A stretch of 64,000 nucleotides of DNA, taken from Spirochaetia bacterium. GTDB lineage: Bacteria > Spirochaetota > Spirochaetia > DSM-27196 > Salinispiraceae. Positions 26,466 through 35,237 of the stretch are shown in pieces. Below the pieces are notes generated by a model. It was not told where the DNA came from and ran no database searches. It was given only the letters and a program-made list of their open reading frames with translations. Position 1 is the stretch's first letter, and every line of letters starts with the position of its first letter. Both the position numbers and the translations under genes were made by a program. The stretch is from contig JBBRCZ010000006.1 in the NCBI GenBank assembly GCA_038204425.1, positions 64,001 to 128,000 of the forward strand. Reading direction: 5' to 3'.

Positions 26466-26867
26466 TTAATCAGGCTCACCAAACCTTCGGGTAAAGTGGA
26501 TGCTGCGACCACCGTCTTCCCAATGATGCTCGCTGGCAAACTCGTCAAAGATAAAAAACCCATGCCCTCGCTCGCCGCCAATTTTTCTTTCTGCCATTAC
26601 TCGAGCAAGGTCAAACCCTTGTCCGCTGTCGCTTACAACTGCCAGCCAGTGATCATCAAATAGGCGAATATCAATACTAATACACTGCCGTGGGTCAAAT
26701 AAGCCACCGTGTTCAATCGCGTTTTCGACTGCCTCTCTGAAGAGCAGTTCTATAGCGAAGCGGTCGGCACGGTTCTTAATCAAGGACAAATGCTCTTTGA
26801 GCGTAGCAAAGAATGCTTCGGCTTCCATTGAGCTCGCTTGTATGATAAAAGAAATTGCTTGTTCCAT
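26466..26867 (-). CDS. RsbW/SpoIIAB-like anti-sigma ATP-binding Ser kinase (HATPase_c)
   Basis: N-box EAVENAIEHG, G1 DSGQGFD, G2 ERGHGFFI. Confidence 0.82.
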   Translation of the reverse strand: MEQAISFIIQASSMEAEAFFATLKEHLSLIKNRADRFAIELLFREAVENAIEHGGLFDPRQCISIDIRLFDDHWLAVVSDSGQGFDLARVMAERKIGGERGHGFFIFDEFASEHHWEDGGRSIHFTRRFGEPD

Positions 26868-26988
26868 AATTATAGCTAAAAGTATCGTGCACTGCTGTCT
26901 AAACTTCCAGAAAAACGCGTTTAAATTTCACCTATAGACTAAAAAAGTCCAAACCAGACAATGTCTTCCAAACTGTACTTTGTTTACC

Positions 26989-27017
26989 TTGCAGTCTGGT
27001 GGGTGTCGGGTTAGAAT
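26989..27017 (+). promoter_or_regulatory. sigma70 promoter, probably leaderless (ProRS paralogue)
   Basis: TTGCAG-17-TAGAAT, then 7 nt to ATG 27025; no SD. Confidence 0.6.
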
Positions 27018-27024
27018 GAACACA

Positions 27025-28770
27025 ATGAAGGCGTCTCTGCTATTTCTACCTATCAAATCTAAAGCTCCGAGTGTGGCTCTACCCTCTCTAACGCAACTCT
27101 TAACCGATGGTGGTTATATTCGTAGCATCGGTGATGGTCTCTACGCTTTTTTACCGCTTGGTATGCTTGTTTTGCAAAGCATAATCCAATTGATCCGCAC
27201 CGAGCTCAAAAGGCTCGGTGGTCAAGAAATCTTATTGCCAATGGTGAGCCCAATGCCACTATTGGAAGCCACAGGGCAGGATCAAATTCTGGGGAGTGAG
27301 CTGCTTACTCTAAAAGATAGCAAAGACCGAATCTTGGCTATCGCTCCTTCACACGATGCGCCCATGCTGGAACTTTTAAAGGGTGTCTTGCATTCGAGCT
27401 GGCAATTGCCGGCCTACTTTTTCCAGATCCAAGCCAAGGCCAAAGACGACCTCAGCCTTGGAAGTGCAGAAGCAGGCTTTTTGGCGCCGCGCGAATACTT
27501 GATGAATGATTCATTTAGCGTTCATCAAAGCTTTACGCAACTAAACAACTTTATTCCAAAGATTTACGGTGCGTTTAGACGCATATTTACGCTTTGTGGC
27601 CTGGAGCCCTTAGTATCAGAAGGTGCTCCGAGTGATCCTTTTGGCTTGCACAGTCATGATTTTATTGTGCTGGACAAGCACGGTGATTATCGGGTGGTAG
27701 TTTGTGAACAATGCCACTATATTGCCGACCAAAGGCTGGCAGTTGGCTTGTCCAAGATTAGCTGTCACCGCCCCTTGCCCCTCGAGCGTGGATCAAAGAC
27801 GGCGACGCATTGTTTGGGGGATCTTTTGAGGGAGCTGGGGTTTGCCACAAGTCAATTGGCGCTTGCTCATGTTTACAGTGCCCAAAAAGGCTTTGTGATG
27901 GCTGTTGCAAGAGCAGATCAGGCCATTAGTCGGGTCAAATTGAGTAGAATTTTGGGTGAGCCCATTTTTCAAGCCCTTGATGCGTCTGCACTGGAATCCT
28001 TGGACCTCTGTCCAGGTTTTATGTCGCCAATGGGTTTGGATCTGCAAGATACGCTGTCGTATGGATTAAGGATAGTAGTAGACAAGTCGGTTGCAGAGAC
28101 ACCTAATCTACTGATTGGTGCTAACCTGTCCGGTGAGTACTGGGTCAACAGCAATTTTGGTCGGGACTACGAAGCACATCTGGTTGGTGACATTGCTGTT
28201 GTTGATGAACGCCAACGCTGTTATCACTGTGGTGGTGAGCTTAAAGTATATGAGGCAATCAAGATTGCCTCTATTGATCGTGTCAATGATATGCACTCGC
28301 GCGCTCTGTCATTGTTGGTCAAAGACGACAAGGGTACTTTGATTCCCCCTTGCATGGGATTTTACGGTTTGAGTATCACGCGACTTTTGGGAGCGGTGGC
28401 CTTAAGCTACCGGGACGAACGAGGGCTTCGTTGGCCATTGCAAGTTACTCCTTACAAAGCGGTGCTTCAAGTTGTAGGAAAGAATTTTCGACTTCAGCTT
28501 CTTGCCCAAGAAATCCATGACTCGCTAGGCGAGCATCTACTGTGGGATGACAGGCCGATTTCATTCTCGCAAAAATGTCTCGACGCTGATAGAATGGGCA
28601 TTTCTATGCGGATAATCATTTCTACGGCAAGTCTCGCAGATCGAAGTGTTATGATTCTGTCACGAACCGGTACATTGAGGAAGCGTGTCACTTTTCATAC
28701 CGTTAGGTCGGTTTTGATGGAGTACTGGAGGCTCGAGCGTGAGGCCCACGGACTACACGAAGAGGTATAA
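27025..28770 (+). CDS. Prolyl-tRNA synthetase paralogue (bacterial-type architecture with INS domain), active site degenerate
   Basis: Colinear with ProS: MKASLLF, GLYAFLPLG, QLPAYFFQIQ, REYLMND, SHDF, GANLSGEY..N.NFGRD, MGFYGLSITRLL, DERGLRWP, WDDR; catalytic motifs altered (see findings). Confidence 0.85.
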   Translation: MKASLLFLPIKSKAPSVALPSLTQLLTDGGYIRSIGDGLYAFLPLGMLVLQSIIQLIRTELKRLGGQEILLPMVSPMPLLEATGQDQILGSELLTLKDSKDRILAIAPSHDAPMLELLKGVLHSSWQLPAYFFQIQAKAKDDLSLGSAEAGFLAPREYLMNDSFSVHQSFTQLNNFIPKIYGAFRRIFTLCGLEPLVSEGAPSDPFGLHSHDFIVLDKHGDYRVVVCEQCHYIADQRLAVGLSKISCHRPLPLERGSKTATHCLGDLLRELGFATSQLALAHVYSAQKGFVMAVARADQAISRVKLSRILGEPIFQALDASALESLDLCPGFMSPMGLDLQDTLSYGLRIVVDKSVAETPNLLIGANLSGEYWVNSNFGRDYEAHLVGDIAVVDERQRCYHCGGELKVYEAIKIASIDRVNDMHSRALSLLVKDDKGTLIPPCMGFYGLSITRLLGAVALSYRDERGLRWPLQVTPYKAVLQVVGKNFRLQLLAQEIHDSLGEHLLWDDRPISFSQKCLDADRMGISMRIIISTASLADRSVMILSRTGTLRKRVTFHTVRSVLMEYWRLEREAHGLHEEV

Positions 28771-28776
28771 AACACA

Positions 28777-29667
28777 ATGAGCTTTGAACTGAGCCCAGAT
28801 TTATTGAACGATTTGATTTTTGGCATGGAAAATCAGCAGGCCCAACAAGTTCTTGATACTAAGTCGCTAAAACTCATTGAGGGTCGCCCAGAGCTAAGCG
28901 ATGATGTAAACTATCTGCTTCTGCCCGAATGGACGTCAGCCAATGGTTTTGAATTGATGGAGAGCTTCGTACTAGGGCTGCACAGTCCATTGTTAAGAGA
29001 GCGCCTGTGGTCAATTCTGGAGAGCGGGCGCGGGGTCTTTAAAAACTTTAAGGCCGCATTGCGAGAAGAGCCAGCACTCGAGCAAAAGTGGCAGCGCCAC
29101 AAGCGCTTGGCGATGAGAAGTCATATTTTGGGTTGGTACAACGAATTAAGAGACTATTGGGGGCTTTTGCCGATCGCGGCCATGGAGGAAGAGGACGGAG
29201 ATACTACTGAGCTGGTCAAGTGGGACTTTAGTATTCGATCGGCGGACATAGAGCATATTGTGTCTCTTACTAGTTTAGATAAACACTACTTCCAAGAAAA
29301 TCTGCGGCAACTTGACTTGTCAGATCTAAGCCAGGATGGAGCTGAGCAGCTTTTTTTGTACTTTAGAGAAGGCCTTGCGCCGCCCCGGCCAGAGCAATTT
29401 ATAGTTTGTTATACTCCAGATGACGAGATAGCTGGCTTTCTTTGGTATCAAAACCGTTGCGGACTCAATGAAATTCTTCAACTTGCTGTCGCAGAGGCTT
29501 ATCGAGGCTTGGGAATTGCTAAGTCGCTGATGGAACAATTCCACAAAAAGATTGCTGCTAGCACAGGGCAAAAAATCATTGTAAAACTGCCTTCTCAGCC
29601 AACTTGGGTTGCTCAAAGTTTTGAGAAACAAGGGTTCAAAAGTCTCGGTTCAATTGCTTTGTTTTAG
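28777..29667 (+). CDS. UPF0158-like domain fused to a GNAT acetyltransferase
   Basis: LPEWTSANGFELMESF, GRGVFKNFK (UPF0158-like); acetyl-CoA motif VAEAYRGLGIAKSLM. Confidence 0.8.
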   Translation: MSFELSPDLLNDLIFGMENQQAQQVLDTKSLKLIEGRPELSDDVNYLLLPEWTSANGFELMESFVLGLHSPLLRERLWSILESGRGVFKNFKAALREEPALEQKWQRHKRLAMRSHILGWYNELRDYWGLLPIAAMEEEDGDTTELVKWDFSIRSADIEHIVSLTSLDKHYFQENLRQLDLSDLSQDGAEQLFLYFREGLAPPRPEQFIVCYTPDDEIAGFLWYQNRCGLNEILQLAVAEAYRGLGIAKSLMEQFHKKIAASTGQKIIVKLPSQPTWVAQSFEKQGFKSLGSIALF

Positions 29668-31793: not shown

Positions 31794-34700
31794 ATGCCAG
31801 AACTAGAGCAACTTGAAAAGTTTAACCAAGACCTCATCAATATCGGCGACGAACCAGCCCAGGCTAAACGCCGAGGCGAAGATATAGAGAGGGTTATGAC
31901 GCCCGAGGAATATCCTCTCAATAATGTAGGTTCCGGCGTCAAAACAAACAAATCAACCGTCAGTGCTTCAAATGATGAGGGCCAAGGGCAGGACGATGCC
32001 TCGGCCGGAACTGATGATTTTCTTGCCAGTTTGGAGCCAGATCTATTTGAGTCGAATGACGATGAGTCCGGCGGCTCTCCGATTGACTATGGTGAGCTCG
32101 GTCTTGGACTTGATGATGAAGCCTCCAGTTCTGCACAACCTGATGACGATGCGTCAGACCTCTTTGAGGATGACTTGCTATCCACTATTAATGCTGGTTT
32201 GGGCGATGAGGACTTAGAACAAGATGCTGACGCCACCGAAACCAAGGACGACGAAGCAAGTTTCTTAGACGGCTTTAGTGATGACTTTTTGACTGGCGGG
32301 CAAGACGCTCTGACAGAGTTCGATGCCGAACTTGAAACTGAAGCTGAGCCTGAAGCAAAACTTGAAACCGAGCCTGAAGCAAAACTTGAAACCGATAAAA
32401 TACTTGAAACAGACGATCTTGATTCTATTGAAAATAGCCAACTCGGTGATCTCCCCGACCTAGATGATGATCATTTTATTGGCGATCTGGCTTCCAGTGA
32501 TGATCCAGATACAGAACTTGATTTGGTTTTGCCGGATGATTCAAGTCCGGGGGCGGTAGACGCCGGTCTTGACCTCGGTGCTGATTTTGATGAACTAGGT
32601 CTAGACGACTTTGAAACAGATGCTGACAATGAATTTCACCAAGCTGCGCAGAGTTTTGATGCTGATGCCATAGCTGGAAGTCAAGCGGACGCTGAGGCAG
32701 TAAGCGCTAGTTCTGACGAATTCCCCTCAATGCCTGATTTTGGCGCCGACATGGATGCCGACTTTTCTACTGACAGCTTTAATGACGAATTTGACATGAG
32801 TGACTTTGGCAAAGACTTTGGTTTGATGGAAGAAGTCAAGTCAGAAGACTGGGGTAAGCCAGGTGCTGGAGCAAAGTCAGATGACAACAAACTGTCTGTC
32901 GTGTCTGATGCCGAAGAAGAAATTCAAAAAGTAAGCATACAGGACGAAGCCGAAGCTTTTGAAATTTCCGATAAAGATTTTAAGTACCTTCAAGATAGCC
33001 TGAGTGCAATGCCGCTCAATCTCAAAATCGCAGCAGAAGAAGTGCTGGCCTCCGAAACCTATAGCTTTGAAGAGCTACGATTATTGATTGGCATGCTGGT
33101 TAGAGGTGACAGTCCCAAAGATATAGCAAGTGTTGTTAGCCGGATAACTGGCAAGAAAATAAAGGTTCCTGCAGGCTATCAGCGCAAAACTGGTCTGGCT
33201 TTTGAGCAAGAACAAAAGAGTTTTGCCTATCAGTTTAGACATAATATTGTTCCACTGCTTCGAGTGGTTTCGCTCAGTTTTGTCGCCGCTGCTGTTCTCT
33301 TCTACGCCATTTATGAGTTTGTTTATCGACCAATTTATGGAGCCAGCCTCTACGAACAAGGATTGCAAGCTATAAGAAGTGGCGAGTTTGATAGTGGCAA
33401 TCAGTTTTTTAAATGGGCTTGGATCCAGTGGCCCGACGAGAGCCGCTATGTTCAATATGCCCAAGCCTTTAGAGAAATGCGTGCCGACGCTAAGGCACGA
33501 GAAAAGTTTATAGAACTACTAGGTAGACCCAATGTTAAGGACAAACCGATTGGTGTAAATCGATTGCATCGACAGGGAATTTTGCAATTTGCCGATTTTC
33601 TGGGTTACTATCGAAGAGAATACTCATTGGCCGTCAATTATTTACAACGCTTGGTAGACGTCAACAAATTTGACCACGATCCAACTATTATGCAAGGCGA
33701 CATCTTTTTGGAGTGGGCTCGCTACACCAGCTCAAGCAGCGTTTTTTCCATAGAAAGGAACGGCCGTATCGAGTCTCAAAAGACTGTCGCGGATCTGTAT
33801 GAGGCTGCACGCTACAACTATGCAAGTCTTATTTCTAGCGAAGGCCAGACCGACATACTATTGTCTAGAATGCTCAGGTATTTTATGCGAACGGGCAACG
33901 AAGACGAAGTAGTCAAGATCAAGAATCTGTTTCTTAAGGATTCGGAAGCAAAGCCTGATGGAAATGTTACTGCAGAGTTGGCAGGTTACCTGATAGATAG
34001 CGCAGAGGGCAACTTTAAGATAATGGATGAGGCTTACAAACTTATTCTCAAGTCGATCAATGGCGGCTACATGGAAGAGCCAGGGCTGCACTACCAATTG
34101 TCGCGCTATTCACGCTTTTTTAAGAGCCAGGATGAAGAAGAAAAAGCACTCAAGTGGGCCAGAACCTACTATGAGCGCCTTCAAGAGAAGCGTGCCTTTA
34201 ACCAGTTTGAACGCACTCAGTATATCGACACCTTAATTAGGGATGGCGAGCGTCTCTACGGCCCTCTCTATGGCAATACCGACCTACTAAACGCCATAAA
34301 CGTGCTCACTACGGCGCGTGAACTATACGACAGTGGTCTCAAGGCGTCTCTCTTACCGGAAAAAACGCCTTTGCTTGGCAGGGTCTACGCGCGGCTTGGC
34401 GATGTGCTTTATTATGATGCGCGAGATCTACCCGGCGCGCTGCGTCAATATAGAATTGCACGTGATCATGGCTATGGAAATACGCCAAAGGAAGTAGGCT
34501 TGGGTTCGGCGGGACTACTGAGTCAGGGAACACACAAGCGATTGTTCTTGCCCGTCGGCGATGCAGGCGTGCCCCACCTTTCTAGTGTCGAACTCATAGA
34601 AGCAGCGCGCGATATCGCTTACAAATCAGGCTACGTCTACTACAACCTCGCGAGAGTTATGCGCCCGCGCAGCGTCGACCAAGAGCGCAATTTTGATAGA

Positions 34701-35237
34701 GCCGCTTCTGAGTTTATTCAGGCAGAGGGTGCTTTAGTGCATCGCAACATCAATCTGCAGTACGCAATTGCAAACACGCACTACTTGCGAGCAAACTACG
34801 ATGCTGCTTCTAGTGAGTACCGTTTGATCCTTGAGCGTTTGCGTTTAGAACGCGAAAACATACCCGAGCTGCTACTCGAGGAAGACCCCGCCCATCGTGA
34901 GCTTGTTGAGTTTATGATTCGCGTTAACAATAACCTTGGCGTAAGCTACTACCAACTCTATCGCCAAGGCGGCGTAGATGCGGCAGAAAACCTCGGCCAA
35001 GGCTTGTTCCATGTTGGACGTGCGATTGAGTTGTACGAAAACGCAGCGCGCAGCCCAGAAACTGCAGTGCGAGCCGAACGGAAGAGCCAAGCCTATAATA
35101 ACCTCAGAGCCATGATAGCCAAAGACTTTACCGATTCGGTAAGCATTACGCTCGACCTACGTCGAGACCTATCACATACACTTTTTAGCAAAGATCTAAT
35201 GACCATACCAGAAGCATCACCTGAACCTGTCCGATAA
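31794..35237 (+). CDS. flcA: Periplasmic flagellar collar protein FlcA-like
   Basis: N-terminus MPELEQLEKF...IGDEP, long Asp/Glu-rich region, PLNLKIAAEE and KIKVPAGYQRKTG before a single TM, then TPR-like helical region, as I recall for spirochaete FlcA. Confidence 0.7.
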   Translation: MPELEQLEKFNQDLINIGDEPAQAKRRGEDIERVMTPEEYPLNNVGSGVKTNKSTVSASNDEGQGQDDASAGTDDFLASLEPDLFESNDDESGGSPIDYGELGLGLDDEASSSAQPDDDASDLFEDDLLSTINAGLGDEDLEQDADATETKDDEASFLDGFSDDFLTGGQDALTEFDAELETEAEPEAKLETEPEAKLETDKILETDDLDSIENSQLGDLPDLDDDHFIGDLASSDDPDTELDLVLPDDSSPGAVDAGLDLGADFDELGLDDFETDADNEFHQAAQSFDADAIAGSQADAEAVSASSDEFPSMPDFGADMDADFSTDSFNDEFDMSDFGKDFGLMEEVKSEDWGKPGAGAKSDDNKLSVVSDAEEEIQKVSIQDEAEAFEISDKDFKYLQDSLSAMPLNLKIAAEEVLASETYSFEELRLLIGMLVRGDSPKDIASVVSRITGKKIKVPAGYQRKTGLAFEQEQKSFAYQFRHNIVPLLRVVSLSFVAAAVLFYAIYEFVYRPIYGASLYEQGLQAIRSGEFDSGNQFFKWAWIQWPDESRYVQYAQAFREMRADAKAREKFIELLGRPNVKDKPIGVNRLHRQGILQFADFLGYYRREYSLAVNYLQRLVDVNKFDHDPTIMQGDIFLEWARYTSSSSVFSIERNGRIESQKTVADLYEAARYNYASLISSEGQTDILLSRMLRYFMRTGNEDEVVKIKNLFLKDSEAKPDGNVTAELAGYLIDSAEGNFKIMDEAYKLILKSINGGYMEEPGLHYQLSRYSRFFKSQDEEEKALKWARTYYERLQEKRAFNQFERTQYIDTLIRDGERLYGPLYGNTDLLNAINVLTTARELYDSGLKASLLPEKTPLLGRVYARLGDVLYYDARDLPGALRQYRIARDHGYGNTPKEVGLGSAGLLSQGTHKRLFLPVGDAGVPHLSSVELIEAARDIAYKSGYVYYNLARVMRPRSVDQERNFDRAASEFIQAEGALVHRNINLQYAIANTHYLRANYDAASSEYRLILERLRLERENIPELLLEEDPAHRELVEFMIRVNNNLGVSYYQLYRQGGVDAAENLGQGLFHVGRAIELYENAARSPETAVRAERKSQAYNNLRAMIAKDFTDSVSITLDLRRDLSHTLFSKDLMTIPEASPEPVR
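32346..32393 (+). repeat. 24-bp in-frame tandem repeat, two exact copies plus degenerate flanks
   Basis: GAGCCTGAAGCAAAACTTGAAACC x2, encoding EPEAKLET. Confidence 0.9.

What the first reader, a model, noticed from the sequence alone, without database searches (positions are those of the whole stretch)
27025..28770. Full-length prolyl-tRNA synthetase pseudo-enzyme: all domains kept, catalytic residues replaced
Seen versus bacterial ProS consensus recalled from memory: proline-binding GPTHEE is APSHDA; motif 2 KFRDE.RPRFG.MR.REF.MKDAY is KAKDDLSLGSAEAGFLAPREYLMNDSF (invariant Arg lost, insertion in the loop); GIEVGHIFQLG is AIKIASIDRVN; WxESGRW is LEATGQD; the INS editing-domain Lys appears absent (QLALAHVY). 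Yet the ORF is intact, has its own promoter, and keeps both CxxC pairs (CEQC, CYHC), the motif 3 Arg (ITRLL) and the anticodon-binding domain. Known: inactive class II aaRS paralogues such as HisZ are repurposed as regulatory subunits. Inference: a selectively retained non-aminoacylating ProRS paralogue acting as tRNA binder, heterodimer partner or regulator. I know of no described function for one.
Basis: partly seen in the sequence, partly recalled or inferred. Interest (0 to 1): 0.78.

Follow-up and report, generated by a model that had tools for sequence, protein, structure and literature searches.

The report
Non-charging proline synthetase copy in spirochaetes
This spirochaete keeps, besides its normal proline-tRNA-charging enzyme, an intact second copy that has lost most of its chemical machinery; it belongs to a widespread family of such copies that is under selection and probably works by binding rather than by catalysis.

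Summary
Observation confirmed. The 581-aa ORF folds as a full bacterial-type ProRS but keeps only 2 of 11 substrate-contact positions and lacks the editing lysine. The genome's working ProRS is a family I enzyme on another contig. The gene belongs to a well-supported Spirochaetia paralogue clade marked by LNNFxP. It occurs in 36 of 81 class genomes sampled, and all 36 also carry another ProRS. Most clade members keep intact active sites. This lineage, and probably independently a second one, lost them, yet relatives show dN/dS 0.08-0.22. A conserved leaderless promoter lies 7 nt before the ATG. Best reading (0.5): a non-charging, zinc-braced binding protein that holds tRNA-Pro and an unknown partner through a clade-specific surface. 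Rivals: rewired ligase, trans-editor, slow decay. ProB and the neighbouring UPF0158-GNAT gene are not obligate partners. No description was found in nine literature searches. This scan noted a similar spirochaete paralogue on other DNA (e1-6715899). No activity was measured.

The parts
26989..27017 (+). sigma70-type promoter, -35 TTGCAG (26989-26994), 17-nt spacer, -10 TAGAAT (27012-27017); ends 7 nt before the ATG, so the transcript is probably leaderless
   Evidence: same architecture in 61 of 73 orthologue upstream regions against 1.4 in shuffles; 8/12 match, below the threshold
27025..28770 (+). degenerate family II ProRS paralogue, 581 aa (P0001)
   Evidence: TIGR00409 244 bits, cut-off 306.7; pLDDT 91.8; TM 0.88 to 2J3L
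27349..27360 (+). TXE proline-binding loop, reads SHDA (T109S, E111D, E112A)
   Evidence: role of the loop from PMC13629369 passages
27436..27510 (+). motif 2: R140K, acceptor-loop RPR lost, 3-residue insertion, R154A, F158Y; E157, M160, D162 kept
27541..27558 (+). clade signature LNNFIP (aa 173-178) at the start of the helix after motif 2
   Evidence: N174+P178 in 84 of 84 clade rows (52 of 52 not selected by the pattern) and 0 of 152 outside
27703..27714 (+). first CxxC pair (C227, C230) before the INS domain; zinc binding inferred
   Evidence: 19 of 19 degenerate members keep both
27817..28155 (+). INS editing domain (PF04073 match aa 265-377); editing Lys replaced by Leu280; NFGRD and D353 kept
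28219..28230 (+). second CxxC pair (C399, C402) after the INS domain
   Evidence: 19 of 19 degenerate members
28252..28287 (+). metal/ribose strand: E413K, G415A, H416S, F418D
   Evidence: E413 is K or R in 12 of 12 f1 subclade members, E in 60 of 60 core members
28354..28386 (+). motif 3: G445, Y447, G448, R453 kept; G450S
28477..28716 (+). anticodon-binding domain; D508-D509-R510, K517, D520, D522, R529, R547 kept; G515, F518, P527, E543 changed
28777..29667 (+). UPF0158-GNAT acetyltransferase gene, 6 nt downstream; usual but not obligate neighbour
   Evidence: (91 of 104 loci)

Best explanation
A second, non-charging ProRS that works as a binding protein. Shown by sequence: it descends from an old family II paralogue of Spirochaetia that sits beside a housekeeping ProRS, has a conserved promoter, and keeps fold, motif-1 residues, four cysteines, anticodon-domain residues and clade-specific residues (N174, N175, F176, P178, S302, G485) while the residues for adenylation, acceptor-stem reading and editing are replaced. 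Inferred: (1) it cannot make Pro-tRNA (about 0.9); (2) it stays a zinc-braced dimer that holds tRNA-Pro by the anticodon; (3) the LNNFxP helix is the surface for an unknown partner, so the protein acts as an adaptor or sensor that reports tRNA-Pro or proline status; (4) core members still bind or activate proline and ATP as part of that job, and that chemistry became dispensable in this lineage.
For: Working family I ProRS in the same genome. Another ProRS is present in 36 of 36 paralogue-bearing class genomes (25 family I, 11 canonical-scoring family II) and 36 of 37 in the order sample, so the clade practically never serves alone. P0001 keeps 2 of 11 ligand-contact positions against 11 of 11 in all 27 housekeeping copies and 32 of 75 housekeeping-invariant columns against a median of 68 in 125 non-clade rows. 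The signature, the four Cys, NFGxD and DD..K517 survive in 17-19 of 19 degenerate members. A second degenerate lineage (f83) has dN/dS 0.076 at dS 0.62; four f1 pairs give 0.10-0.22. Model pLDDT 91.8, TM 0.88 to 2J3L. Conserved promoter.
Against: No binding, activity or expression data. No partner identified: proB was not found in 8 of 36 paralogue genomes and UPF0158-GNAT not in 5 of 5 tested for lack of the neighbour. Several changes are conservative (T to S, E to D, R to K, F to Y), which could leave chemistry. Anticodon-domain positions G515, F518, P527, E543 are changed in P0001 and R529/D520 in f83, so tRNA binding may also be gone. No dN/dS could be computed on the branch of P0001 itself (synonymous sites saturated against its nearest fetched relative). 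The gene was not found in 2 of 7 same-family genomes (G001, G004, both 93% complete). The signature could be structural, not an interface; no coordinates were available to check.
Confidence: 0.5

Rival explanations
1. Rewired ligase: still uses ATP, but with another amino acid or acceptor, the fixed E413K replacing a metal ion.
For: The adenine sandwich is kept (Y158, R453); T109S, E111D, R140K, E212D are conservative; E413 is K or R in 12 of 12 f1 members. Core members keep full active sites under selection. An earlier scan note reads a spirochaete paralogue this way (unchecked).
Against: No fixed new pocket: position 109 is S5/M3/A2, 450 is G6/S4/N2, 154 is K5/R2/S2 in f1; two f1 members lose R453; f83 loses a different set. 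G415A and G450S alter the ribose contacts named in PMC13629369. CysRS and the class IIa set are present, so no missing synthetase was seen that it would replace (other synthetases not checked).
Confidence: 0.17
2. Trans-editing factor: it clears Ala-tRNA-Pro made by the family I ProRS, using its INS and anticodon domains.
For: It carries the only PF04073 domain found in G000, G003, G014, G069 and G310. INS editing needs the anticodon domain (PMC3973320 passages). 54 of 60 core members keep the INS Lys.
Against: The Lys whose Ala mutant is called editing-defective is absent from 12 of 12 f1 members and varies K/R/G in f83. The paralogue is kept in 11 genomes whose other ProRS is family II with INS. 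Many family-I-only spirochaetes have no PF04073 match at all, e.g. f15, f64, f66. It may hold for core members, not for this protein.
Confidence: 0.12
3. Relaxed selection: a once useful second ProRS that is drifting towards loss in this lineage.
For: Long branches (1.92 from the clade root against a core mean of 1.05). Not found in G001 and G004 of the same family or in 45 of 81 class genomes. Split ORFs in 3 of 104 loci (one of them has frameshifts in enolase too). No branch-specific dN/dS.
Against: Intact 581-codon frame although synonymous sites are saturated against the nearest fetched relative; 41.8% identity to it, the same as the neighbouring GNAT gene (41.9%). Promoter kept. Losses fall on catalytic columns while signature and Cys columns stay. 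dN/dS 0.08-0.22 in degenerate relatives.
Confidence: 0.13
4. Dedicated subunit of the downstream UPF0158-GNAT acetyltransferase.
For: Adjacent and co-oriented in 91 of 104 loci, often with overlapping stop and start.
Against: Each gene persists without the other: UPF0158-GNAT lies directly beside enolase in 9 of 30 class loci with the same conserved residues, and it was not found in G290, G301, G310, G329, G348, which keep the paralogue.
Confidence: 0.05
5. A working second ProRS that still charges tRNA-Pro.
For: Whole fold and R453 kept; the genome's tRNA-Pro genes have C1:G72 and A73, as family II enzymes need.
Against: 9 of 11 ligand contacts and the acceptor loop are changed; under both HMM cut-offs; the clade is found without another ProRS in only 1 incomplete genome.
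Confidence: 0.03

Closest known systems
Family II (bacterial-type) ProRS with INS domain, e.g. E. faecalis 2J3L/2J3M, S. aureus 5ZNJ (TIGR00409, PRK09194)
   Same: Domain order and fold (TM 0.88), motif 1, motif-3 Arg, anticodon domain
   Different: Under both cut-offs; TXE loop, motif-2 Arg, metal strand, acceptor loop and editing Lys replaced; LNNFxP signature; lives beside another ProRS
LeuRS-I (Sulfolobaceae) and LeuRS2 (Halobacteria)
   Same: Full-length duplicate with damaged editing domain, bound to tRNA but not or hardly charging (PMC9437257 passage)
   Different: Class I, archaeal; LeuRS-I still makes adenylate, which fits the core clade better than P0001
SLIMP (insect mitochondrial SerRS paralogue)
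   Same: Class IIa duplicate that keeps tRNA binding, lacks aminoacylation and works through protein partners
   Different: Eukaryotic; heterodimer with SerRS. Here the co-resident ProRS is family I in some genomes and family II in others, which makes one heterodimer mode less likely (inference)
HisZ
   Same: Class IIa fold without adenylation, allosteric amino-acid sensor
   Different: HisZ lacks the anticodon domain (recalled) and goes with HisG; this protein keeps all domains and does not track proB
ProRSx of Streptomyces
   Same: The only ProRS paralogue in the 2022 review table
   Different: Active, with its own tRNA-ProA; no such tRNA among 41 found here
Editing-only ProRS relics (non-clade rows P0009, P0010, P0125, P0155; scan notes e1-3574167, e1-2316470)
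   Same: Full-length ProRS with a dead synthetic site
   Different: They keep the INS Lys and fall outside this clade; P0001 has lost the Lys

Membership tests
Family II ProRS (functional) | TIGR00409 / PRK09194 score above curated cut-off | tested here: not met
   244.4 vs 306.7 and 314.5 vs 558 bits
Family II ProRS (functional) | Catalytic + INS + anticodon-binding architecture and fold | tested here: met
Family II ProRS (functional) | TXE loop, motif-2 Arg/Phe, metal-binding Glu/His, motif-3 Gly | tested here: not met
   2 of 11 positions kept, counting E142D as kept
Family II ProRS (functional) | Motif-3 Arg | tested here: met
   R453
Family II ProRS (functional) | Charges tRNA-Pro | not testable with these tools
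   needs an assay
INS / ProXp trans-editing factors | Conserved editing Lys (K279) | tested here: not met
   Leu280; Lys in 0 of 12 f1 members
INS / ProXp trans-editing factors | PF04073 domain with GXXXP loop (motif recalled) | tested here: met
   43.9 bits; G331 and P335 kept
ProRSx | Own tRNA-Pro-like tRNA with Ala anticodon | tested here: not met
   none among 41 tRNAs in a 95.6% complete assembly
HisZ-like regulatory subunit | Co-occurs with the amino-acid biosynthetic enzyme it controls (ProB tested) | tested here: not met
   proB not found in G292, G295, G301, G302, G313, G314, G326, G344 (90-97% complete), 8 of 36
HisZ-like regulatory subunit | Loss of the anticodon-binding domain (recalled) | tested here: not met
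   domain present
Full-length non-charging aaRS duplicates (LeuRS-I/LeuRS2, SLIMP type) | Full length, beside a canonical copy, under purifying selection | tested here: met
   (selection shown for relatives, indirectly for P0001)
Full-length non-charging aaRS duplicates (LeuRS-I/LeuRS2, SLIMP type) | Binds cognate tRNA without charging it | not testable with these tools
   anticodon-domain residues partly kept
Full-length non-charging aaRS duplicates (LeuRS-I/LeuRS2, SLIMP type) | Heterodimer with the canonical enzyme | not tested
   no model of the pair with the family I ProRS was run

The most novel reading that the evidence does not exclude
A class-wide bacterial family of ProRS-derived sensors or adaptors that read tRNA-Pro or proline status and signal through a new LNNFxP surface, in which catalysis was shed at least twice while the essential job stayed: a bacterial counterpart of SLIMP or of the GCN2 HisRS-like domain (GCN2 recalled), with live and dead members available for direct comparison.
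Probability: 0.25. Interest if true: 0.82.

Novelty: new variant of a known kind. Interest (0 to 1): 0.6.

Why it matters
The 2022 review table of duplicated synthetases lists only ProRSx for ProRS. This is a second, widespread ProRS paralogue family. The two member records that carried a source name are filed as prolyl-tRNA synthetase or ligase-related protein, and core members pass the TIGR00409 cut-off, so the family hides in annotation. It offers a natural series from intact to dead active sites with one conserved surface, which makes the non-canonical function directly testable and shows how a pseudo-enzyme arises.

Tried and rejected
Complex prediction of P0001 (aa 1-572) with UPF0158-GNAT gave no answer (score 0.00); it is no evidence either way. 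No RNA holder listed for the region. Strain variation: runs X2-X5 gave no difference inside the ORF except one in a depth-2 contig, so no pN/pS. The metagenome scan found no relative closer than 40% (80 loci kept of 174). AU test of f1+f83 as one clade: p 0.10, not rejected, so independent degeneration rests on tree placement (SH-aLRT 99 and 97), different orders and different residues lost. Rfam gathering search of 9 loci: 0 matches, no T-box. tRNA-Pro-anticodon-like hairpins: none upstream of the paralogue; 34 scattered genome hits without a null, not followed. Single-sequence promoter scan not above chance. ProB partner rejected by co-occurrence. Fold search of the neighbour matched only its GNAT half; the UPF0158 half was barely tested. 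ESM Atlas returned only ProRS clusters, the first mostly Spirochaetota. Literature searches gave no description of this clade; the library lacks most subscription papers and no supplements were read.

Full report
1. Observation. The frame 27025-28770 (+) gives 581 residues without stop. A contig from a second study spans 26517-29041 with no difference. Best solved relatives are family II ProRS (5ZNJ E 2e-62, 2J3L E 1e-60). The AlphaFold2 model built on a 78-row alignment has pLDDT 91.8 and matches 2J3L with TM 0.88. It scores under the cut-offs of TIGR00409 and PRK09194.

2. What the changes mean. Passages of PMC13629369 name the contacts in a ProRS-Pro-AMP structure: T111 and E113 (proline amine), R142 (alpha-phosphate, proline carbonyl), E144, F157 and R462 (adenine), E422, G424, G459 (ribose), E211, E422, H425 (metal). 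I mapped these by motif to P0001 (my inference, through): S109, D111, K140, D142, Y158, R453, K413, A415, S450, D212, S416. Allowing D at 142 and H/N/Q at 416, all 27 housekeeping family II copies taken from genomes keep 11 of 11; P0001 keeps 2. Of 75 columns invariant in those 27, it keeps 32; the median of 125 non-clade rows is 68. The INS Lys, whose Ala mutant PMC3973320 uses as editing-defective (passages), is Leu280.

3. The genome has a working ProRS. G000 (95.6% complete) holds a family I ProRS at C5:119173-120609, 612.7 bits over a 437 cut-off, with intact PTSE, FLRTTEF, QAGTSHYLG and STRL motifs. P0001 is its only family II-like gene. Two normal tRNA-Pro genes (C1:G72, A73) and no odd tRNA were found among 41.

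4. A Spirochaetia paralogue clade. Relatives form one clade apart from housekeeping family II enzymes: FastTree support 1.0 (67 of 214 rows; 84 of 236 rows) and SH-aLRT 100 in a 57-row subset. N174+P178 of LNNFxP occur in 84 of 84 clade rows, including 52 not selected by that motif, and in 0 of 152 others. In 81 class genomes I count 36 carriers: 28 at 790 bits or more, 7 lower-scoring ones placed by tree, 1 split over two contigs. All 36 have another ProRS: 25 family I, 11 a second family II match. In the order sample 37 of 41 carry it (some as fragments) and 36 of these have another ProRS; the exception G009 is 92% complete in 200 contigs. In the phylum sample only G000, f8 and f13 genomes scored or sat as carriers among the rows shown (108 weaker rows were not listed). 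Kin are not independent, so these are tallies, not tests.

5. Two tiers. Core members look intact: 36 of 60 keep 11 of 11 contacts and 14 keep 10; 54 of 60 keep the INS Lys. One clade-wide change is the aromatic after SGR: W or Y in 28 of 28 housekeeping copies, Y in 5 and W in 0 of 84 clade rows. P0001 lies in a nested long-branch subclade, f1 (support 0.997 and 99), where E413 is K/R in 12 of 12, the INS Lys and the RPR acceptor loop are gone, and 2-8 contacts remain. A second lineage in 1.9-2.0 Mb genomes (f83: G310, G329, G348) keeps 4 of 11 and loses a different set. The trees place f1 and f83 apart, but the AU test does not reject their union (p 0.10). Across 19 degenerate members the four Cys, E157, S165, LNxFxP, S302, K305, D353, N377/D381, G445 and G525 are kept by all.

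6. Selection. Nei-Gojobori dN/dS: f83 0.076 (dS 0.62) and 0.20; f1 0.10-0.22 in four pairs (dS 1.5-2.8, near saturation); core 0.055-0.21 in 10 of 12 pairs, two saturated. For P0001 itself synonymous sites are saturated against its nearest fetched relative (pN 0.42, pS 0.81), and its identity (41.8%) equals that of the GNAT neighbour (41.9%). GC3 is like that of neighbours. Against: 3 of 104 loci have split frames and two same-family genomes gave no match.

7. Context. The usual locus is enolase (divergent), paralogue, UPF0158-GNAT, then an acyltransferase or oppA. UPF0158-GNAT follows in 91 of 104 loci (some are the same genome twice; several misses end at contig edges). Neither gene needs the other. 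In this window an RsbW-like gene stands where enolase usually is. A TTGAC-N17-TA(C/G)AAT promoter ends 4-12 nt before the start in 61 of 73 upstream regions, 7 nt here, so the mRNA is probably leaderless, which leaves no room for a T-box. Such sites precede an ATG in 162 of 1429 long ORFs of this genome against 50 shuffled, so it is not unique. It was not seen in f83.

8. Mechanism. What is kept across independent-looking losses is scaffold, cysteines, part of the anticodon domain and clade-specific residues; what is lost is chemistry, with no fixed replacement pocket. I therefore favour a non-charging binding protein (0.5): tRNA-Pro held by the anticodon domain, a partner bound through the LNNFxP helix, and possibly residual proline or adenine binding (S109/D111, Y158/R453). 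Every step after loss of contacts is inference. Rivals: rewired ligase 0.17, slow decay 0.13, trans-editor 0.12 (it is the only PF04073 domain found in this genome, but lacks the Lys), GNAT subunit 0.05, working ProRS 0.03.

9. Known comparisons. It works most like LeuRS-I/LeuRS2 or SLIMP (PMC9437257 passages) but belongs to none of them; it fails the tests for functional ProRS, ProRSx, HisZ-type and INS editors. Papers seen as passages only: PMC9437257, PMC5388404, PMC9976931, PMC3973320, PMC13629369, PMC4030129. Nine searches found no description; subscription papers and supplements were not seen. Scan notes (unchecked) report a rewired ProRS copy in another spirochaete and editing-only relics elsewhere.

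10. Verdict. Real, conserved, apparently undescribed; new variant of a known kind; interest 0.6.

Noticed in passing
window 28777-29667 (+): UPF0158-GNAT fusion conserved across many Spirochaetia (MENQ, PxW, GVFRxFK motifs); only one paper in the library mentions UPF0158; substrate unknown.
   Followed up: partly
L225-L227 (G348, G310, G329): Second, more degenerate paralogue lineage in small genomes; enolase, UPF0158-GNAT and acyltransferase neighbours are gone, the gene stays beside the glycogen-binding gene; dN/dS 0.076.
   Followed up: partly
P0009, P0010, P0087, P0116, P0125, P0141, P0152, P0155: Non-clade full-length ProRS with decayed synthetic motifs but intact INS Lys and anticodon motif: candidate editing-only relics, a separate group.
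   Followed up: partly
G295, G322: Genomes with three ProRS-type genes: family I, canonical family II and the paralogue.
   Followed up: no
G000 whole genome: A promoter-like site 5-10 nt before an ATG in 162 of 1429 long ORFs (50 shuffled): leaderless mRNAs may be common here.
   Followed up: partly
window 26466-26867 (-): RsbW-like anti-sigma ATPase gene occupies the divergent position held by enolase in most relatives.
   Followed up: no
window 31794-35237 (+): Flagellar collar protein FlcA (NF047371 over cut-off), confirming a spirochaete.
   Followed up: no
class sample families f15, f64, f66: Family I ProRS with no PF04073 editing domain found anywhere in the genome.
   Followed up: no
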